Source of the DNA: a virus
Lineage: Duplodnaviria; Heunggongvirae; Uroviricota; Caudoviricetes
IMG/VR virus record: IMGVR_UViG_2541047866_000012
Reading direction: 5' to 3' (one strand)
DNA length: 44,933 nt
Shown here: positions 386 to 44,933 of the stretch, piece by piece
Layout of the letters: the number at the start of each line of letters is the position of its first letter
Numbering within the stretch: position 1 is the stretch's first letter
The notes under the pieces: generated by a model
Databases searched by the model: none
Seen by the model: the letters and a program-made list of their open reading frames with translations, nothing else
Told to the model about the DNA's origin: nothing
Made by a program: the position numbers and the translations under genes

Positions 386-1600
386 ATGGCGCTGTCTGAT
401 GCGTGGTTGCGTTCAGTCGTTGGAAAGGAACGTGATAAGGTTTTGGTTAAATCCGATCGTGATGGTCTGTCTGTCAGAGTATCACCGAAAGGTCGCGTAG
501 TGTTCCAATATCGTTATCAATGGGCAGGGAAAGGTGAGCGTCTTGATATCGGAACTTACCCGGCAACTGGATTAAAAGAGGCCAGAGAAGAAGTTATTCG
601 TCTCCGTGGTGAACTCGAGTCAAACCGTAATCCACGATTGGTCAAGCAGGCTGAAAAACGAAAAGCTACTGAAGCCATGACGGTAGAGTCTGTGATCCGT
701 GCCTGGTATGAAGCATATTGTGTAAAAAATAAAAAAGGTTCTGAACAGATACTCCGCTCGTTTGAGCTGCACCTGTTCTCTAAAATCGGGAATATCCCTC
801 ACGATGCAGCTACATTGCATGATTGGTTAGAAGTCCTGGAGCCTCTTAGCACTAAGACTCCAGCAATAGCAGACCGATTGCTAATTAACGCAAAGCAGGC
901 CCATGTCTGGGCGTATAAGAGAAAGCTCATTGAAACTCGCCCGCTGTCGGATATCACGGGTAAAGATATGGATATCCGTAAAGGTCAGAAGAAACGGTTT
1001 CTGACACATGATGAAATTAAAATCCTTTATGCTGCGATCGATGGTTCTCGAATGGTTCCTAAATACCGGGCCTTCATTAAACTATTGCTTCATTTTGGTT
1101 GCCGTAGTTCAGAGCTAATTACCGCCAGGGTGGACGATTTTGATTTCATTAATAAAGTATGGACTGTACCACCAGAACGACATAAGACTGGGGAGATAAC
1201 AGGCGAACCGCTAAAGCGGCCCATTATTGAACCGGTTGAAGAGCTTATAAAGTACGCTATTTCTATGAACAATGGTTCCGATATGCTTTTTACTAAGGAA
1301 GGAAGCAGGGAACCCGTTGGTCGGACATCATTGCAGTCGCTGCCTTACAATTTAATGCAGTATGCATGGCGGCGTTTGGGTTATCAATTCCCTCATTGGT
1401 CTCTTCATGATTTGAGGCGAACAGCACGAACAAACTTTTCTGATCTTACTGCGCCTCATATTGCAGAAATTATGCTAGGTCATAAACTGCCAGGGGTATG
1501 GCAAGTTTATGACAAGAGCGATTATCTAGAAGAACAGCGTAAAGCCTACCAAGCGTGGTGGGAGAGGGTTGAATCGATCGTTACTTGTACTGGTTCATAA
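386..1600 (+). CDS. int: Tyrosine recombinase / phage integrase (P4-type)
   Basis: 404 aa; RBS AAGGTGAG before ATG; catalytic HDLRRTARTNF (HxxR box) and C-terminal GHKLPGVWQVYDKSDY with Tyr; N-terminal arm-binding-like domain. Confidence 0.93.
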   Translation: MALSDAWLRSVVGKERDKVLVKSDRDGLSVRVSPKGRVVFQYRYQWAGKGERLDIGTYPATGLKEAREEVIRLRGELESNRNPRLVKQAEKRKATEAMTVESVIRAWYEAYCVKNKKGSEQILRSFELHLFSKIGNIPHDAATLHDWLEVLEPLSTKTPAIADRLLINAKQAHVWAYKRKLIETRPLSDITGKDMDIRKGQKKRFLTHDEIKILYAAIDGSRMVPKYRAFIKLLLHFGCRSSELITARVDDFDFINKVWTVPPERHKTGEITGEPLKRPIIEPVEELIKYAISMNNGSDMLFTKEGSREPVGRTSLQSLPYNLMQYAWRRLGYQFPHWSLHDLRRTARTNFSDLTAPHIAEIMLGHKLPGVWQVYDKSDYLEEQRKAYQAWWERVESIVTCTGS

Positions 1601-1975
1601 TCGAAATGATATTTTGCATATCTAGTACGCAATAAAATATGACAGTCCGCTTTGAGCTGCGGGCATTGCTAGCAGCATTTTCTGTGAAGTAACGGGAGGT
1701 TGTTCAATATTGCCTCTGAAAAGGATAACCATTCAATTCTTCATTGAAAAAACTCATCGAAGATTTTATGGAGGGATGCAATTTATTTTGAGCGAATTTA
1801 ATTCATCACTAATGATCCTACATAGTTATTGCCTTGCTCACTAAAAGGTGAGATTTCATTAGCTCACCAACAATAATTAAATAGGATCATTAGCACTTTA
1901 TATCAGGCTATAATTTTAATAAATTACGTTATTTAAAGCCATTTTCTCCATCAAGTAATATCTTCATGCTAATGT

Positions 1976-2971
1976 TCACTTTTGTTTTAGCTTTATAATT
2001 TCTGATATCATAGTTGTTAGCTTTGAATCGGAAAGATTCTGCAGTCTATCTTTCTCAATAGAAACTGTAGTTTGTCCCTTTTCTAATATGAAATTTCTTT
2101 CTGTTTTCATTAAAAGCATTGCCAACTCTTTTATCATGTCTTCGTTCTTGAATTCTTGAGCATATTTTAGAGACATGACTTTCATCTCAATATTTGTGAT
2201 TTCATTCTGAAAATATTTGATTTCGTCAAACCCATTTTTATAGAGGCGTAGAAAAAAATAAGCAAACAATTCAACGACTATTACAAATGATAATTTAGGA
2301 AGGTGATGAATAAAAAATCCCACCCCATCCACAATGTCTGGCGCGCTGTAAAGAAAGTAAGCAAGAGATAATATCCCTGTCAACGCAATTATTGTTCCGA
2401 TTGCAAGGTTAAGCCCACCTCGTCGATTGAGTCTGTCTATTTCAGACTCTAATCTTAGAACCATATCAGTATGGAGTTTATGTAAGCTGTAGCTCTTCTT
2501 AAAATCAGATATATCGCTTTTTAGGCTGTTATCTGCCAGAAGTATTGTGTTTCCAATTATTCTCTTTTTTGCATCGGATATTAACTTCTCCCTTTCACTC
2601 TCTGTTATTTCAATGGAAACTCCGGAAGATGTTCTATTTTCAATTTCGCTCAATTTTTTATTTAGCTTAACTATTTCTTTGTGAAAAATATATCTCGTGT
2701 TTTCAATATCTCTACCACCAATTCCTTTGTTTAAATAAGAAGTCATTATTGCGACAAAAGAACCAACAAAAACTAGGGCAGTTGCTGTAAATAAAATAAA
2801 CTCTTTCTTCTCGTTTATTAAATTTACTATTGATGATGATTCCAGTTGAATGTCTGAAAGCGAAGTTTTAAGCACAAAATTCATCACAGGTGAAACCATG
2901 ATTATGGCAACAACTATAATAAATCCATATTTTTTTATAATGTAAATAAGAAGACCAAATAAATCTTTCAT
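1976..2971 (-). CDS. AT-rich predicted 4-TM membrane protein with coiled-coil segments, unknown function (cargo / moron)
   Basis: ORF 1976-2992 (TTG); first ATG at 2971 gives about 331 aa; hydrophobic helices near residues 12-36, 66-88, 194-216, 225-250; much more AT-rich than backbone; no enzymatic motif seen. Confidence 0.8.
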   Translation of the reverse strand: MKDLFGLLIYIIKKYGFIIVVAIIMVSPVMNFVLKTSLSDIQLESSSIVNLINEKKEFILFTATALVFVGSFVAIMTSYLNKGIGGRDIENTRYIFHKEIVKLNKKLSEIENRTSSGVSIEITESEREKLISDAKKRIIGNTILLADNSLKSDISDFKKSYSLHKLHTDMVLRLESEIDRLNRRGGLNLAIGTIIALTGILSLAYFLYSAPDIVDGVGFFIHHLPKLSFVIVVELFAYFFLRLYKNGFDEIKYFQNEITNIEMKVMSLKYAQEFKNEDMIKELAMLLMKTERNFILEKGQTTVSIEKDRLQNLSDSKLTTMISEIIKLKQK

Positions 2972-3344
2972 TTTATCTTTTACCTGAAACAAATTTTTAT
3001 TAAAGTAACTTAAAAAATGATTGATTGCAAGATTTACTATTGCTGTTCATTTTAAATTACTATACCCCCCTATGCATACATATAATCCCATAGGGGAGAA
3101 GTTTATTAGTTAGTTAAGTTGAAGGCTATACCTACAATCTAATTCCCCTCCAACCTAACATGCACAAGCGTCAACCTATCGGTAGTGATAATTTTATGAG
3201 GATACGTATAAACAAGATTCTGAGTTGCTCCTATTCATTAAGACAATACATTTTGTAACTTCTGCTTTTGGCTCAGGGTGGGGTGTGAGATTAGGTTTGG
3301 CTCTGTGCCATAGATGTGTCAGTTCACATCTGAGCTAATACACA

Positions 3345-3539
3345 TTACTCAATCACTCCAGCAAACCTATATATCTTGTGTGACGCCCATTTATTTGGGC
3401 ATGATTTAATATCAGGATCTGGAAAATCAGGCCTGTATTTCTGGCCAGTTCTCCGGTTTACGCTGTTCCAGCGAAGAACTGTCGATACTGAAACGCCACA
3501 GAAGTCGGCGACTTGTTTAGTTGTCATTAAGTTGTTCAT
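3345..3539 (-). CDS. xis: Excisionase / AlpA-type HTH DNA-binding protein
   Basis: 64 aa; motif TTKQVADFCGVSVSTVLRWN typical of AlpA/Xis HTH; start overlaps stop of upstream gene (TAATG). Confidence 0.75.
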   Translation of the reverse strand: MNNLMTTKQVADFCGVSVSTVLRWNSVNRRTGQKYRPDFPDPDIKSCPNKWASHKIYRFAGVIE

Positions 3540-4333
3540 TACTTCACCTCCTGCGGCGGTTCCGGTAGCGGCATCCAGTGGGTTACTTTCGATGCCGGTT
3601 CTTCCACATCGTCAGTAACTGCCCACCATTTGTTTCTCGACCAATCGTAATACCCTTCGAAGGTATCGCACTCAGTCCAGCCGTAAGACTTCCCCCAACA
3701 CCAAACATACTGTTTATCGTTCGGCATTCGCTCACTACAGCTTATCCAACCATCCGGAGTTACCGGAGAGTTGCCCGATAGCGCATTACGCAATCGCTCC
3801 AGCTTCACGTATTCCTGAACCCTGTTTCCGTCGCATGCCTGAAGCCATTGCGCAGCCTTTTGCGCATCAGTGTGAAAGGCACAAGTGCGACCGTCATCAA
3901 ATTGCATTTCGTAGAGGTCAGCAACTTGTTCAAACTGCGTGTGTTGTGACTTGTAAGTTTGGCTTACAGGTTCGGCACCATGAAGCATGGCGGCGCGGCA
4001 GGCGTTCCAGCCATCAACATAATCAAACGTATTGCTATCGTCTGGCTCGATTTCATCTGGCACTATCAGCACCGGCTGGACGGTGACATTGGCAAAGGCA
4101 GCACGCAACCCGGTTTTAATTTCTTCGATTTCATCAGAGCCAAGCGATGAGTCAGAAAGCGCATGGTGGAATGCGTAAGCCATGTCGTCGTTTACTGCCA
4201 CCGGCTCTGCTTCCAGTGATGCCAGCGCGATAAGCGCCAGCTCACGAATTTCACCGCCGTCTATATCGTCAATGTCATCGCGGCCAGAAATGTTAGCCAG
4301 CCATTGCAGTCGCTCTTTGGAAATAGTGATCAT
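3539..4333 (-). CDS. Phage early protein with C-terminal DUF551-like domain
   Basis: 264 aa; C-terminal WISCSERMPNDKQYVWCWG...THWMPLPEPP resembles DUF551; N-terminal part paralogous to ORF 4697-5053; ATGA overlap with upstream gene. Confidence 0.8.
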   Translation of the reverse strand: MITISKERLQWLANISGRDDIDDIDGGEIRELALIALASLEAEPVAVNDDMAYAFHHALSDSSLGSDEIEEIKTGLRAAFANVTVQPVLIVPDEIEPDDSNTFDYVDGWNACRAAMLHGAEPVSQTYKSQHTQFEQVADLYEMQFDDGRTCAFHTDAQKAAQWLQACDGNRVQEYVKLERLRNALSGNSPVTPDGWISCSERMPNDKQYVWCWGKSYGWTECDTFEGYYDWSRNKWWAVTDDVEEPASKVTHWMPLPEPPQEVK

Positions 4334-16123: not shown

Positions 16124-16570
16124 TTAAGGTTTTAATTCATCAAGACGTTGTTGGATAGTGTTTTTGCTTGCGTTGTCTGTTATAGCCATTTGTTGTACTT
16201 GCCCCATTGCCATTTGAGTTTCCATCCACATATCGGCCCACACTTTTGTATCGTTATTAACTTGAGCGATAGTAAATCTGACTTTTGATACCGGGGTTGT
16301 TGAATAGGCATTGCCGATTAACATTTGTCCAAAAACGGCAGAGCCGCCTTCCAGTTCTTTACCACATATAACACTGCTGTTATCCGCGTTGTAAATTATC
16401 AACCCTCTACTATTGCAGTAATTCACAAGGGCATCTTTGACTTTATCTTTTGTCGTATTTTGATAAACCCCCTCAGGTTTTCCTGATTGAGTTTTCTTTA
16501 TCAATGGTACGGAAGAAGTACAACCTGAAATGATAGTTGCGCTAAGTAATAGTACAGTTATTTTATTCAT
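16124..16570 (-). CDS. AT-rich predicted lipoprotein (moron), unknown function
   Basis: 148 aa; signal peptide with lipobox ISGC (Cys17); opposite strand to flanking phage genes; lower G+C by eye. Confidence 0.8.
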   Translation of the reverse strand: MNKITVLLLSATIISGCTSSVPLIKKTQSGKPEGVYQNTTKDKVKDALVNYCNSRGLIIYNADNSSVICGKELEGGSAVFGQMLIGNAYSTTPVSKVRFTIAQVNNDTKVWADMWMETQMAMGQVQQMAITDNASKNTIQQRLDELKP

Positions 16571-17194: not shown

Positions 17195-18247
17195 ATGAAA
17201 AATACTGTAAGAATAAACAGTGTTGATTTAATCAACGCTGATTGCCTGCATTTTATTCAGTCCCTGCCTGATGATTCCATTGACCTGATTGTTACCGATC
17301 CGCCGTACTTCAAGGTGAAACCCAACGGCTGGGACAATCAGTGGAAAGGGGACGAAGATTACCTTAAGTGGCTGGACCACTGTCTGGCCCAGTTCTGGCG
17401 GGTGTTAAAACCTGCCGGAAGCCTTTACCTGTTCTGTGGGCATCGTCTGGCATCTGATATTGAGGTCATGATGCGTGAACGTTTCAACGTGCTTAACCAT
17501 ATCATCTGGGCGAAGCCGTCCGGACGTTGGAATGGGTGTAATAAAGAAAGTCTGCGCGCATATTTTCCTGCCACAGAGCGCGTTCTGTTTGCTGAACATT
17601 ACCAGGGGCCATATCGCGGCAAAAGTGACGGCTATGCGGCAAAAGAAAGGGAACTCAAACAGCACATAATGGCACCGCTGATATCGTATTTCAGGGATGC
17701 TCGTGCCGAACTGGGTATAACGGCAAAACAAATTGCCGAAGCCACAGGTAAGAAAAATATGGTTTCCCACTGGTTTGGTGCCAGTCAGTGGCAGTTGCCG
17801 AATGAGGCTGACTATCGGAAGTTACAGGCACTGTTTTCCCGTATAGCGGCAGAGAAGTTTCAGGAACAACAACTGGAACAACCACACCACCAGCTGGTGG
17901 CATCTTATGATTCACTGAATCGCAAATATTCTGAATTGCTGGATGAGTTTAAATCTCTCCGGCGCTATTTCTCCGTATCAGTCTCCGTGCCTTATACCGA
18001 TGTCTGGATGCATAAACCCGTTCAGTTCTACCCGGGTAAACATCCGTGTGAGAAACCGGCGGATATGCTCAGGCAAATAATCAATGCCAGTAGTCGACCT
18101 GGTGATCTGGTTGCTGATTTTTTTATGGGATCCGGTTCCACAATAAAAGCAGCAATGGCGCTGGGGCGTCGGGCCTTAGGTGTTGAGCTTGAGTCAGAGC
18201 GGTTTAACCAGACAGTGAAAGAGATAAACGAGCTGGTGGGGAAATAA
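17195..18247 (+). CDS. DNA methyltransferase (beta-class N6-adenine / N4-cytosine, orphan)
   Basis: 350 aa; motif [10 protein letters not shown] near N-terminus and motif I FFMGSGST near C-terminus. Confidence 0.85.
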
Positions 18248-43041: not shown

Positions 43042-43800
43042 TTAACATTCTGGATTTTTTATTTCTAAATCAGATAAAGCATTAATTCTTATTTTTTCTA
43101 AGGCTTTATCCATGGCCCCCTTGATTCTGTATCCATAATCATCCGGTTCTTCATATTCCTGTGGGGACGGATTTGTACCAATATTCTCAATCAATTCATT
43201 TAAAATAACTGTTACTTCTTTATTAAGAAGAACTGCTTTAGTTAACATCATCTCTGTTAATGCTGTGAAGGCTAGGCTAAGTTTCTGTTGTAGCTCTTTA
43301 TTTTTTAATTTTAGATCTTCATCGTTTAGTGCTTTATCACGGTCTTCGTGAGCCTGTTGTACTTCATCCCAAAACTGCTTTTCTTGTTCTTGATTAAAAT
43401 ATCCTTGATAACTATTGGCTACATATGTTGGCATCATGTGAATCTCAATAATTTCAAATTCATTATCAGCCCATTTTTTTATACTAAGTAACTGTGTGTA
43501 AATGTACTCATACATATCGTACTTTTTTTGCCAGATTTGTTGAGAAATCCACAACTCAGAAGTAATCTTTTTTTCTATATCTTTGATAGTTGTTGTATTT
43601 AATGCTAACTGCTTTCTGAGTATTTCATAGTTAGCGTTGGTAGCAGAAATTTTTGCTTTTTCAGTTATAAAAGAAACAATAAAGTTCACTATGAGAGCTA
43701 CAATAATAATAGCGAAGCTCAACCCCAAAATCTCTGTGGTTGAGAAATTGGATGACTGTAATGCTTTGATAAGTTCAAAAAACTGTTTTTCTGTGAGCAT
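43042..43800 (-). CDS. AT-rich single-TM coiled-coil membrane protein, unknown function (cargo gene B)
   Basis: 252 aa; TAAGG RBS; TM helix about residues 24-45; Lys/Glu/Gln-rich coiled-coil-like remainder. Confidence 0.8.
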   Translation of the reverse strand: MLTEKQFFELIKALQSSNFSTTEILGLSFAIIIVALIVNFIVSFITEKAKISATNANYEILRKQLALNTTTIKDIEKKITSELWISQQIWQKKYDMYEYIYTQLLSIKKWADNEFEIIEIHMMPTYVANSYQGYFNQEQEKQFWDEVQQAHEDRDKALNDEDLKLKNKELQQKLSLAFTALTEMMLTKAVLLNKEVTVILNELIENIGTNPSPQEYEEPDDYGYRIKGAMDKALEKIRINALSDLEIKNPEC

Positions 43801-43898: not shown

Positions 43899-44933
43899 TC
43901 AAGGAGGTGAGATTGTAGAGGCGTTACCTTGTTCTATCACACCAGACCTAATCTTGTAACTACCAAGGATGTTGACCGTTTTATTATTTTTCATCGCGTC
44001 AAAAATTAAGCCTATTTCATCAGGGTCATTGATAAAACTGGTATCAACATAGATCGGGAATGAATCATCACCTGTTGGCTCATGGCAGCTTAACGTTAGC
44101 TTATCGGCTGAGCGTTTTATACTATCAATGACAACTTCCAATGTTTGCTGCTCTGACTTAGCCTTTTCAATTGGGTTCTTGATGATTTCTTGAACCTGAC
44201 CTTGCGAAAGTTCAATATTGCTGGCCCCGCGGATCGTCACTTTGTCTGCATCAGATGCACCTTTAAGAACTCCAGTGTATGCCTTAGCGGTGTGCTCTTG
44301 GATACCTTCGGCGCGCTCTATCGTATCAATACCTTCATGTGCTTTTATTGCAGACAGCATACCATCGCGTAGAATTGTCATCCGCTCGGATTCTGCTCGC
44401 TGTTTTGCTTCTTCCTGTTGTAACTCAATAGTTTTGGTTTCGACTTGTGTCTGATGATCTAAGTAGGACGTACCGACCCATGCGCCGCCTAAAACTAAGA
44501 CAGCAAACAGGAAACACATTGTTTTCTGTCTTGGGCTCATACCTTGTGTTACCTTCTCAAATGCGTTACCAAAGGAATCAATAAGTTCTTTAACTGAGGT
44601 GATAATTTCTGTACAGCCAGGTTTGATAGTAAAAACCAACTCTGCAGCTTCTCTATCCTCAGCAGTGAGCTTCTGTAAGTTAGAGGTTTTGTACTTGATT
44701 AGAGTAAAAACCTTGTACATCTCAGTTTGAAATTCACAAATACCCTGTGCCAAACCTGCAGGCAGAGTACCATTATACTTATCTTCATCACCAAAAAATT
44801 TGAAATCAATACTTTCTAAGAAGTTTAACTTCAAATTTTCAATGTGGATTTCTTCGCCTGAAATAACTCGGTCGAAAATATTTCCTATATCATCAATATC
44901 ATTGATTTCATAGGTCTGAATTGCATCTTCCAT
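43899..44933 (-). CDS. AT-rich single-TM membrane protein, unknown function (cargo gene A)
   Basis: 344 aa; start ATG is the last three bases of the window; internal TM helix about residues 138-158 (TMCFLFAVLVLGGAWVGTSYL). Confidence 0.8.
   Translation of the reverse strand: MEDAIQTYEINDIDDIGNIFDRVISGEEIHIENLKLNFLESIDFKFFGDEDKYNGTLPAGLAQGICEFQTEMYKVFTLIKYKTSNLQKLTAEDREAAELVFTIKPGCTEIITSVKELIDSFGNAFEKVTQGMSPRQKTMCFLFAVLVLGGAWVGTSYLDHQTQVETKTIELQQEEAKQRAESERMTILRDGMLSAIKAHEGIDTIERAEGIQEHTAKAYTGVLKGASDADKVTIRGASNIELSQGQVQEIIKNPIEKAKSEQQTLEVVIDSIKRSADKLTLSCHEPTGDDSFPIYVDTSFINDPDEIGLIFDAMKNNKTVNILGSYKIRSGVIEQGNASTISPP

What the first reader, a model, noticed from the sequence alone, without database searches (positions are those of the whole stretch)
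1976..2971. AT-rich 4-TM cargo gene between integrase and excisionase
A 331-338 aa protein with two N-terminal and two central hydrophobic helices, each pair followed by a charged coiled-coil-like segment. It lies in a strongly AT-rich island (1601-3340) at the far end of the leftward operon, next to int and attL, a known moron hotspot. No motif I recognise. It may be a membrane-acting abortive-infection or exclusion effector.
Basis: partly seen in the sequence, partly recalled or inferred. Interest (0 to 1): 0.7.

Follow-up and report, generated by a model that had tools for sequence, protein, structure and literature searches.

The report
Orphan four-helix membrane gene in prophage hotspot
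A real, well-conserved gene for an inner-membrane protein of unknown family sits as a self-contained, AT-rich cassette in a swap-in/swap-out slot of an E. coli prophage where related prophages carry the known anti-phage gene Dsr1, so it is a good but untested candidate for a new single-gene membrane defence.

Summary
Window 1976-2971 (-) encodes a 331-aa protein (ATG 2971; the upstream TTG is not conserved). It has four hydrophobic helices and lies in the lowest-GC stretch of the window (32% against 50%), between integrase and excisionase.

It is a 1.6-kb cassette (about 1644-3275) with a conserved promoter-like site and a 3' hairpin. It fills a slot with sharp boundaries. Prophages at the same yjjG site, with about 95% identical integrase, carry at least six other cargoes there, including Dsr1.

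The protein belongs to a large family that has not been described: 2,812 clusters at 50% identity, in many phyla, always about 300-400 aa. No conserved neighbour gene was found. Pfam, NCBIfam and PADLOC give no match, and there is no significant PDB match by sequence or fold.

The TM3-TM4 hairpin and the C-terminal cytoplasmic part are under strong purifying selection (dN/dS 0.04-0.09). The N-terminal helix diverges faster than the non-coding flanks.

The layout resembles MotA. Homology to MotA/ExbB/TolQ was tested and is not shown, and there is no B-subunit partner gene.

Best reading, inferred and not shown: a stand-alone membrane sensor-effector acting in phage defence or exclusion. It is a candidate, not a demonstrated system.

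The parts
1976..2971 (-). CDS of the 331-aa four-helix membrane protein (stop TGA at 1976-1978, start ATG at 2969-2971)
   Evidence: ORF list. RefSeq annotation WP_000653746.1. The ATG is conserved in three alleles. dN/dS 0.14 over aa 86-331. phrog_5157 matches full length at E=2.7e-226.
2738..2932 (-). N-terminal membrane hairpin: TM1 (aa 14-36, nt 2864-2932), a short loop inferred to be periplasmic, and TM2 (aa 56-78, nt 2738-2806). This is the variable part of the protein.
   Evidence: Hydropathy. aa 1-40 are only 40% identical to the 84% allele, with dN/dS 0.82. The first 255 nt of the CDS are more diverged (59-77% identity) than the non-coding flanks (66-86%). The region is poorly conserved across the family.
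2420..2737 (-). Charged helical linker (aa 79-184), inferred to be cytoplasmic, ending in invariant R173 and E177
   Evidence: Charge table. Helices 89-116, 124-145 and 147-208 in the model. Invariant columns. dN/dS 0.23.
2237..2419 (-). Conserved TM3-TM4 hairpin (aa 185-245). Invariant or nearly invariant residues are G185, N188, G192 and G199 in TM3, and P225, E234 (mid-membrane) and the FAYFFLxLYK motif in TM4.
   Evidence: Hydropathy. Invariant columns in alignments of 34 and 78 sequences. dN/dS 0.04. pLDDT 87-94.
1979..2236 (-). C-terminal domain (aa 246-331), inferred to be cytoplasmic, with the motifs EIKYFQNExTN and TERNFxLxKGQxT
   Evidence: Invariant K252, Q255, N256, E257, T290, E291, R292, N293, T302 and E306. 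dN/dS 0.09.
3002..3030 (-). Promoter-like site: -35 TTGCAA (3030-3025), a 17-nt spacer, and -10 TACTTT (3007-3002)
   Evidence: Read from the sequence. Both hexamers and the spacing are conserved in the 84% and 73% alleles, where the -10 is TATTTT. The stricter automatic scan did not list it. This is a consensus match only.
1807..1894 (-). Long conserved 3' stem-loop. The inner hairpin is GGTGAG (1868-1863) / CTCACC (1852-1847) followed by TTTT (1846-1843). It is a probable terminator between the convergent cargo gene and int.
   Evidence: RNA fold z=-3.57, and no shuffle of 200 folds as well. In a 7-sequence alignment, 5 of 28 pairs keep pairing through changes on both sides. A terminator-like site is also called on the + strand at 1837-1852.
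1644..3275 (.). The mobile cassette, which equals the variable slot between int and xis
   Evidence: Homology to the 73% allele at the end of an unrelated Mu/P2-like prophage spans window 1644-3275. In seven prophages with other cargo, homology to the window stops at 1591-1657. In the six whose fetched stretch reaches the far side (L010, with Dsr1, ends before it), homology resumes at 3243-3295. GC is 0.321.
386..1600 (+). Tyrosine integrase (left flank, convergent with the cargo gene)
   Evidence: Pfam Phage_integrase, Arm-DNA-bind_3 and Phage_int_M. phrog_1.
3345..3539 (-). Excisionase (right flank)
   Evidence: phrog_1553 excisionase, E=4.1e-36. HTH_17, sub-threshold. Not annotated in RefSeq UTI89.

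Best explanation
The gene is an autonomous prophage cargo cassette: its own promoter-like site, one gene and a terminator-like hairpin. It encodes a stand-alone inner-membrane protein that most likely protects the lysogen against other invading elements.

Proposed working, all inferred. The protein inserts with its N- and C-termini in the cytoplasm. The conserved TM3-TM4 hairpin, with heptad-spaced glycines, a proline and a buried glutamate (E234), assembles into an oligomeric ion-conducting core. The two cytoplasmic helical regions and the polar motifs (R173/E177, KYFQNE, TERN...KGQ) hold that core closed. The fast-evolving N-terminal helix and loop act as the specificity or sensor part, detecting a phage component at the membrane. 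On triggering, the core dissipates membrane potential, so the infected cell stops supporting phage growth (abortive infection).

Shown: the gene is real and under selection; it is a mobile cassette; it sits in a slot that alternately holds Dsr1; the family is large, single-gene and uncharacterised.

Inferred: topology, oligomerisation, ion conduction, trigger and defence function.
For: 1. Variable slot with fixed boundaries, holding at least seven different cargoes. These are this gene; 239-aa, 515-aa, 413-aa and 342-aa unknowns; a 260-aa protein plus a CHAT-domain protein; and Dsr1 (PADLOC Dsr1 E=0).

2. The same cassette, with its flanks, is found at the end of an unrelated prophage. In all 11 Enterobacterales homologues looked up the gene lies in or at the edge of a prophage: next to int, after tail-fibre genes, next to gtrABC, next to AbiJ/Abi_C, or next to a GmrSD_N gene plus an AAA_15/21 ATPase.

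3. A Halomonadaceae homologue lies directly after KwaA-KwaB.

4. In IMG/VR viral contigs of at least 20 kb, 22 of 54 copies lie within 3 kb of a contig end, against 8.9 expected.

5. No conserved partner gene in 80 loci from many phyla, so the gene works alone.

6. dN/dS is 0.04-0.09 in the core and 0.82 in aa 1-40, and the N-terminal coding DNA is more diverged than the non-coding flanks. This is the pattern expected of a conflict interface.

7. A nearly invariant (at least 90%) mid-membrane glutamate and an invariant proline in TM4, and a glycine face in TM3.

8. Single-gene membrane 'sentinels' with no known domains that cause energy depletion have recently been described (Namtar and Attar, bioRxiv 10.64898/2026.07.06.735840). 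This gives the proposed mechanism a precedent.
Against: There is no functional data of any kind.

PADLOC (2023) has no significant match; the best is a '2TM effector' at E=0.0075.

Among one-genome-per-species loci the immediate neighbours are mostly ordinary or unknown genes. Only a minority are defence-type or mobile-element genes, and only 6 of 80 have a detectable integrase within 7 kb. Defence-island enrichment is therefore not demonstrated.

The gene is absent from 50,697 sequenced phage genomes.

At 32% GC the cassette may be H-NS-silenced in the lysogen (inference from general knowledge). That would be awkward for a constitutive guard.

The monomer model (pLDDT 81.6, pTM 0.63) says nothing about oligomers or pores.
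Confidence: 0.38

Rival explanations
1. Constitutive superinfection exclusion. The protein sits in the inner membrane and blocks genome entry of incoming phages, in the manner of P22 SieA, T4 Imm or HK97 gp15, without killing the cell.
For: It is an inner-membrane protein encoded at a prophage end with its own promoter-like site. It sits next to O-antigen-modifying gtrABC in Pantoea. The variable periplasm-facing N-terminal hairpin could track phage injection proteins.
Against: Known entry blockers are narrow, phage-group-specific families (general knowledge). This family spans Proteobacteria, Bacteroidota, Planctomycetota, Acidobacteriota, Nitrospirota and others. Its most conserved parts are cytoplasmic and intramembrane, not periplasmic. 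No similarity to any Sie family was found in PHROGs or PADLOC.
Confidence: 0.2
2. An orphan, very divergent MotA/ExbB/TolQ-type 'A subunit'. It either forms a channel by itself or borrows a host B subunit (TolR, ExbD or MotB). In that way it would interfere with Tol/Ton-dependent entry of phages and colicins, or use proton flow as ZorA does in Zorya.
For: The layout is the same as MotA: two TMs, a cytoplasmic loop of about 105 aa, a TM hairpin whose helices continue far into the cytoplasm, and a C-terminal tail of about 85 aa. It has a buried acidic residue, as ExbB E176 and TolQ E173 have (and general knowledge).

UniRef names one member 'MotA/TolQ/ExbB proton channel domain-containing'. PF01618 is hit sub-threshold by 6 of 78 members. 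hhalign independently aligns the same pre-TM3/TM3 stretch to the equivalent stretch of TolQ, ExbB and MotA, with P=0.005-0.2. ExbB, PomA and TolQ recur in the Foldseek top 50.
Against: No score is significant. Foldseek gives E about 1 and TM 0.2-0.4. A deeper TolQ profile gives P=0.36. The UniRef-named member itself has no PF01618 hit. The proline-to-glutamate spacing differs: P..E is +9 here and +4 in ExbB/TolQ. No B-subunit-like neighbour occurs in 80 loci. PADLOC ZorA models do not match.
Confidence: 0.1
3. Cargo with a role other than phage defence. It could be a membrane sentinel against conjugative plasmids, or a lysogenic-conversion factor that changes envelope physiology or stress tolerance of the host.
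For: Many family members lie in ordinary chromosomal neighbourhoods with no detectable integrase or defence genes. Anti-plasmid single-gene membrane systems exist. Prophage-end cargo includes non-defence genes such as lom and umuDC-like genes in these same loci.
Against: The same slot holds Dsr1. Several homologues are adjacent to phage-defence genes. The family is not among the Namtar, Attar or Ishtar homologue tables: a motif search of their Table S3 found nothing.
Confidence: 0.22
4. A decaying or functionless ORF in AT-rich junk DNA.
For: It is annotated only as hypothetical. The Shine-Dalgarno sequence is weak. Truncated copies exist in some assemblies.
Against: There is strong purifying selection (dN/dS 0.04-0.14). 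The family has 2,812 clusters at 50% identity with 21 invariant columns across phyla. The length is uniform.
Confidence: 0.01

Closest known systems
MotA / ExbB / TolQ / ZorA (A subunits of 5:2 ion-driven motors, Pfam PF01618)
   Same: Four-TM, N-in/C-in layout like MotA. A long cytoplasmic insert lies between TM2 and TM3. The helices of the TM hairpin extend into the cytoplasm. There is a conserved buried acidic residue and a proline. ZorA shows that such proteins can serve in phage defence.
   Different: No significant sequence, profile or fold match. The motif spacing differs. No B subunit (MotB, ExbD, TolR or ZorB) or any other conserved partner gene is present. There is no long ZorA-type tail.
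Single-gene membrane 'sentinel' immune proteins Namtar and Attar (bioRxiv 10.64898/2026.07.06.735840)
   Same: One gene, several TM helices and no recognisable domain. They are widely but sparsely distributed. They are proposed to sense an invader's membrane machinery and to cause energy depletion and growth arrest.
   Different: They are different protein families: none of this family's motifs occur in their homologue tables. They have five TM helices rather than four. They act against conjugative plasmids. Activity for the present family is untested.
Lambda RexB (with RexA) and Kiwa KwaA (with KwaB)
   Same: Prophage- or island-encoded four-TM inner-membrane proteins that act in phage defence, with RexB described as an ion channel (general knowledge). 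A homologue of the present family lies next to KwaAB.
   Different: RexB (144 aa) and KwaA (about 190 aa) are much smaller and lack the two large cytoplasmic helical regions. They need a soluble partner. PADLOC models for them do not match. The present gene has no partner.
Prophage and satellite defence hotspots (P2/P4 hotspots, Rousset et al. 2022, PMC9122126)
   Same: Conserved flanks, sharp boundaries, many alternative AT-rich cargoes, and a mix of known defence systems and unknowns.
   Different: This slot is between int and xis of a lambdoid prophage at the yjjG-prfC site. It is not one of the P2 or P4 loci. Whether this slot has been described before was not established.
Mycobacteriophage Butters gp30/gp31 (PMC7542560)
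   Same: A prophage-expressed four-pass membrane protein that contributes to defence against heterotypic phages, as the paper's title and abstract indicate.
   Different: It is a two-protein system in an actinobacteriophage.

Membership tests
MotA/ExbB/TolQ (PF01618) 5:2 motor A subunit | Significant match to the PF01618 profile | tested here: not met
   The window protein has no hit. Of 78 diverse members, 6 hit below threshold, best E=0.004. The member that UniRef names MotA/TolQ/ExbB has no hit.
MotA/ExbB/TolQ (PF01618) 5:2 motor A subunit | Profile-profile similarity to TolQ, ExbB or MotA | tested here: inconclusive
   hhalign of A2 against single sequences gives P=0.11, 0.0047 and 0.23. 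Against the 3-sequence alignment it gives P=0.0096, collinear over 195 columns. Against an 82-sequence TolQ/ExbB profile it gives P=0.36. The positive control, MotA against the same profile, reached only P=0.008, so the test lacks power.
MotA/ExbB/TolQ (PF01618) 5:2 motor A subunit | Fold match to solved ExbB, TolQ, MotA, PomA or ZorA structures | tested here: not met
MotA/ExbB/TolQ (PF01618) 5:2 motor A subunit | Adjacent gene for a B subunit (MotB, ExbD, TolR or ZorB) | tested here: not met
   All-against-all clustering of ORFs in 80 loci from many phyla finds no neighbour family in more than 4 loci. None is present in the window, where the cassette holds one ORF.
MotA/ExbB/TolQ (PF01618) 5:2 motor A subunit | Membrane layout: TM hairpin preceded and followed by large cytoplasmic helical regions | tested here: met
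   Hydropathy and charge distribution. Helices 147-208 and 216-274 run through TM3 and TM4 into the flanking (inferred cytoplasmic) regions. The segment lengths compare with the E. coli MotA sequence.
Known anti-phage defence families (PADLOC-DB v2.0.0, including ZorA, KwaA, RexB, Abi proteins, CBASS/Pycsar TM effectors) | Significant HMM match | tested here: not met
   The only hit is PDLC00707 '2TM effector' at E=0.0075, 13.5 bits.
Namtar / Attar / Ishtar anti-plasmid systems | Sequence membership in the published homologue tables | tested here: not met
   The motifs KYFQNE, FAYFFL, TERNF and YFQNE, and four accessions of this family, are absent from Table S3, which lists sequences. This was a text search only, not a profile search.
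Moron (autonomous cargo cassette in a prophage) | Base composition distinct from the surrounding phage genes | tested here: met
   GC 0.321 against 0.498. It is the lowest 1.6-kb stretch in the window.
Moron (autonomous cargo cassette in a prophage) | Own promoter and terminator flanking the gene | tested here: inconclusive
   A conserved TTGCAA-17-TA(C/T)TTT site lies upstream. A conserved hairpin followed by a T-run lies downstream. These are sequence predictions only, and the stricter scan did not call the promoter.
Moron (autonomous cargo cassette in a prophage) | Present or absent among otherwise related phages, and found in unrelated phages | tested here: met
   Replaced by other cargo in related prophages. 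The same cassette occurs in a Mu/P2-like prophage end.
Prophage defence hotspot | Conserved flanks with many alternative cargoes, including validated defence systems | tested here: met
   At least seven cargo states lie between boundaries at 1591-1657 and 3243-3295. One is Dsr1, and one contains a CHAT-domain protein. The other cargoes are unknowns.
Housekeeping transporter or channel families | Significant match in Pfam, NCBIfam or PDB | tested here: not met
   Pfam and NCBIfam give none. PDB sequence profiles give nothing meaningful.

The most novel reading that the evidence does not exclude
This would be the founding member of a very large, previously unnamed family of single-protein membrane immune sentinels: at least 2,800 clusters at 50% identity, spread across many bacterial phyla. 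In this reading, a MotA-like ion-conducting core works without any B subunit and is gated by a hypervariable N-terminal transmembrane hairpin that recognises invader components inside the membrane.
Probability: 0.25. Interest if true: 0.8.

Novelty: new variant of a known kind. Interest (0 to 1): 0.58.

Why it matters
If the protein defends against phages, it adds a widespread one-gene membrane system to the known immune repertoire. It is small enough (1 kb) to be easy to study, and natural allelic variation points to the specificity element, the N-terminal helix.

It would also mark the int-xis slot of yjjG-site lambdoid prophages as a place to find further systems, because five other cargoes there are also unknowns.

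If the distant likeness to MotA/ExbB is real, it would show that the A-subunit scaffold can work without a B subunit. That bears on how 5:2 motors arose and were recruited to immunity, as in Zorya.

Tried and rejected
- Pfam, NCBIfam, PADLOC and PHROGs scans of the protein and of 34- and 78-member alignments gave no named family, only phrog_5157 of unknown function.
- Recurrent sub-threshold DUF2207_C hits (23 of 78 members) cover only hydrophobic segments and were not pursued.
- PDB sequence-profile searches returned coiled-coil noise: keratin, ATP synthase b and haemagglutinin.
- Chemoreceptor, colicin and AhlB pore-toxin hits at E about 0.4-1 were treated as long-helix noise. The UniRef label 'Chemotaxis protein' has no supporting MCPsignal hit.
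- MotA/ExbB/TolQ homology was tested several ways. One used a TolQ profile built from 80 metagenomic sequences. The result was not significant, and the positive control showed the test is weak.
- Internal duplication, (2 TM + coil) twice, was rejected.
- No conserved small ORF lies in the 300-bp upstream region, and there is no Rfam match in 1500-3600.
- No conserved partner gene was found.
- Literature searches for the accession, the PHROG id, a family motif and related keywords found nothing on this family.
- The defence systems of Vassallo et al. were checked by text and do not match.
- The other cargo proteins of the slot have no PDB relatives.
Full report
**1. What is there**

The stretch holds one long ORF on the minus strand, 1976..2992 (338 aa from TTG).

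- RefSeq annotates the 331-aa form from the ATG at 2971 as hypothetical protein WP_000653746.1 in E. coli UTI89.
- An alignment of the upstream region with two diverged alleles shows that the ATG and its context are conserved and the TTG is not. The product is therefore 331 aa.
- Hydropathy gives four transmembrane helices at aa 14-36, 56-78, 185-207 and 224-245.
- Both inter-helix and terminal soluble parts are highly charged.
- The short 208-222 loop is acidic and the residues after TM4 are basic. From this I infer N-in/C-in, with both large helical regions in the cytoplasm.
- Two AlphaFold models are all-helical. The better one, built from a 78-sequence alignment, has pLDDT 81.6 and pTM 0.63. 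In it, TM3 and TM4 are parts of helices about 60 residues long that run on into the flanking soluble regions.
- The island is the lowest-GC 1.6-kb stretch in the window, 0.321 against 0.498.
- The integrase (386-1600, + strand) and excisionase (3345-3539, - strand; phrog_1553, E=4e-36) flank it.

One correction: int is convergent with the gene rather than in the same operon.

**2. It is a real gene under selection**

I compared the gene with an 84%-identical allele at the same slot in other E. coli strains.

| Region (aa) | dN/dS |
|---|---|
| 1-40 | 0.82 |
| 41-85 | 0.37 |
| 86-180 | 0.23 |
| 181-250 (TM3-TM4) | 0.04 |
| 251-331 | 0.09 |

dS is similar throughout, at 0.24-0.48. The first 255 coding nucleotides are more diverged (59-77% identity) than the non-coding flanks (66-86%). 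The N-terminal membrane hairpin is thus evolving unusually fast while the rest is tightly constrained.

**3. It is a self-contained cassette in a variable slot**

Prophages integrated at the same yjjG-prfC site, with about 95-97% identical integrase, share homology with the window only up to 1591-1657. In the six whose fetched stretch reaches the far side, homology resumes at 3243-3295. The locus with Dsr1 ends before that point.

Between those points they carry other cargo:

- a 239-aa protein (phrog_8440);
- a 515-aa protein (phrog_13820);
- a 413-aa protein (phrog_30399);
- a 342-aa protein;
- a 260-aa protein plus a CHAT-domain protein;
- the 1,275-aa sirtuin Dsr1 (PADLOC Dsr1, E=0).

A 73%-identical allele sits at the end of an unrelated Mu/P2-like prophage, after the tail-fibre and invertase genes. 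There, DNA homology with the window runs from 1644 to 3275, which is the ORF plus about 300 bp on each side.

The upstream flank carries a conserved TTGCAA-17-TA(C/T)TTT promoter-like site at 3030-3002.

The downstream flank carries a long stem-loop at 1807-1894, whose inner hairpin is followed by TTTT. Its fold z-score is -3.6, and 5 of 28 pairs keep pairing through changes on both sides.

This matches the classical description of a moron. Expression was not tested.

**4. The family**

- A search with the protein found 1,080 relatives.
- A profile search of 1.84 billion representatives found 2,812 clusters at E<=1e-3 and 1,524 at E<=1e-30. The 150 best listed are mostly about 300-400 aa, plus some shorter, probably partial, sequences.
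- Eighty loci from a one-genome-per-species collection span Gamma-, Beta-, Alpha- and Epsilonproteobacteria, Bacteroidota, Planctomycetota, Acidobacteriota, Nitrospirota, Verrucomicrobiota and others.
- Across 78 diverse members, 21 columns are invariant: R173, E177, L189, G192, G199, P225, F239-L241, L243, Y244, K252, Q255-E257, T290-N293, T302 and E306. E234 in mid-TM4 is conserved in at least 90%.
- The N-terminal third is barely alignable.
- There is no internal duplication.
- There are no domain fusions.
- There is no conserved neighbour: the most frequent neighbour family occurs in 4 of 80 loci.
- The gene is in 142 of 5,426 complete E. coli genomes at the DNA level, on 74 IMG/VR contigs and on 7 plasmids.
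- It is in none of 50,697 deposited phage genomes.

**5. Context elsewhere**

In Enterobacterales, every homologue I looked up lies in or at the edge of a prophage:

- Enterobacter and Kosakonia: between icd and the integrase of icd-site prophages.
- Proteus: at the right end of a prophage, after the tail fibres.
- Pantoea: after the tail-fibre assembly gene and near gtrABC.
- Siccibacter: beside a GmrSD_N gene and an AAA_15/21 ATPase gene.
- Citrobacter: beside an AbiJ/Abi_C gene in the late region.
- Kosakonia sacchari: near a tail-spike gene and umuDC.

A Vreelandella homologue directly follows KwaA-KwaB. In IMG/VR contigs of at least 20 kb, 22 of 54 copies are within 3 kb of a contig end, against 8.9 expected. 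The contigs are not independent of each other.

Across the 80 diverse genomes the picture is weaker. I scanned the 146 immediately adjacent ORFs. The commonest hits were each seen in only 2-3 of them:

- CAP12-type TIR domain;
- AAA_15/AAA_21 (OLD/Gabija-like) ATPases;
- Schlafen/AlbA_2;
- PADLOC candidate PDC-S35;
- integrases;
- DDE transposases.

KAP NTPase was seen once. Many neighbours are housekeeping genes. Only 6 of 80 loci have a detectable integrase nearby. I could not compute a proper defence-association score.

**6. What it is not, and what it may resemble**

No Pfam, NCBIfam or PADLOC family matches. PHROGs has it only as phrog_5157, of unknown function.

One lead was MotA/ExbB/TolQ, for four reasons:

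- UniRef names one member that way.
- The layout equals that of MotA.
- Six of 78 members hit PF01618 below threshold.
- ExbB, PomA and TolQ recur in the Foldseek top 50.

I fetched E. coli TolQ, ExbB and MotA and ran profile comparisons.

| Comparison | P value |
|---|---|
| A2 vs single TolQ, ExbB, MotA | 0.11, 0.0047, 0.23 |
| A2 vs 3-sequence alignment (collinear over 195 columns) | 0.0096 |
| A2 vs TolQ/ExbB profile built from 80 metagenomic TolQ relatives plus E. coli TolQ and ExbB | 0.36 |
| Positive control: MotA vs that same profile | 0.008 |

All three single-sequence comparisons aligned the same pre-TM3/TM3 stretch. The positive control shows the test is too weak to decide. Homology is therefore not shown. 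The functional hallmark of these motors, a B-subunit gene next door, is absent.

The family is also not among the recently described single-gene membrane systems Namtar, Attar and Ishtar. This was a text search of their sequence tables.

**7. Most likely working**

I favour a stand-alone membrane sensor-effector that protects the lysogen (confidence about 0.4).

- The conserved TM3-TM4 hairpin, with its glycine face, proline and buried glutamate, would form an oligomeric ion path.
- The conserved cytoplasmic polar motifs would act as a gate.
- The fast-evolving N-terminal hairpin would be the part that meets the invader.

Every one of these steps is inferred.

The rivals are:

- constitutive entry exclusion (0.2);
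- a non-phage role, such as an anti-plasmid sentinel or lysogenic conversion (0.22);
- an orphan MotA/ExbB-like subunit that uses host partners (0.1).

A junk ORF is excluded by the selection data.

**8. Verdict**

The finding is real, and the cargo-in-a-hotspot reading is well supported. The defence function is a reasonable but untested inference.

The protein family is large and, as far as these libraries and the searchable literature show, undescribed. The kind of thing it probably is, prophage-borne single-gene membrane immunity, is known. I rate it a new variant of a known kind, of moderate-to-good interest, and cheap to test.

Noticed in passing
window 1807-1894 (- strand): A long stem-loop in the 3' flank of the gene is conserved in alleles down to 73% protein identity, with compensatory changes in 5 of 28 pairs (for example GATCC/GGATC becomes GATGC/GCATC). 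It is larger than a simple terminator needs to be and travels with the cassette.
   Followed up: partly
window 2717-2971 (codons 1-85 of the gene): The N-terminal coding DNA is more diverged between alleles (59-77% identity) than the non-coding DNA on either side (66-86%). dN/dS is 0.82 in aa 1-40. This suggests diversifying selection or segment swapping in TM1.
   Followed up: partly
Same slot in other genomes: L007 2497-3216, L008 2382-3929, L009 2395-3636, L106 4838-6969, L107 4984-6012: Five other cargoes of the int-xis slot are also unknowns. They are the 239-, 515-, 413- and 342-aa proteins and a 260-aa protein plus a CHAT-domain protein. The four scanned (239, 515, 413 aa against PADLOC and Pfam) or searched (515, 413, 342 aa and the CHAT protein against PDB) had no significant match. 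They are further defence candidates.
   Followed up: partly
window 3345-3539 (-): The 64-aa excisionase ORF (phrog_1553, E=4e-36) is not annotated in the RefSeq record of UTI89. The DUF551 gene next to it (3539-4333, intact here, 264 aa) is annotated there only as a pseudogene fragment.
   Followed up: partly
window 43042-43800 (-) and 43899-44933 (-): Two leftward-reading hypothetical genes (252 and 344 aa) lie beyond the tail-fibre genes at the right end of the prophage. In UTI89 a DinI-like gene and then prfC follow them. This is a second likely cargo position. I did not analyse them.
   Followed up: no
window 16124-16570 (-) and 17195-18247 (+): Between the Q antiterminator and the lysis genes lie an oppositely oriented 148-aa hypothetical ORF and a DNA methyltransferase. 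This is another typical moron position in lambdoid phages.
   Followed up: no
collections: The family has a PHROG and occurs on 74 IMG/VR contigs, but tblastn finds no copy in 50,697 deposited phage genomes. It seems to be carried by prophages that have not been isolated as phages, or to be lost from or under-represented in cultured phages.
   Followed up: partly
window 3069-3107 (- strand): An 8-bp inverted repeat, CCCCTATG...CATAGGGG, lies about 40 bp upstream of the promoter-like site. It is not conserved in the 84% or 73% alleles, so it is probably incidental.
   Followed up: partly
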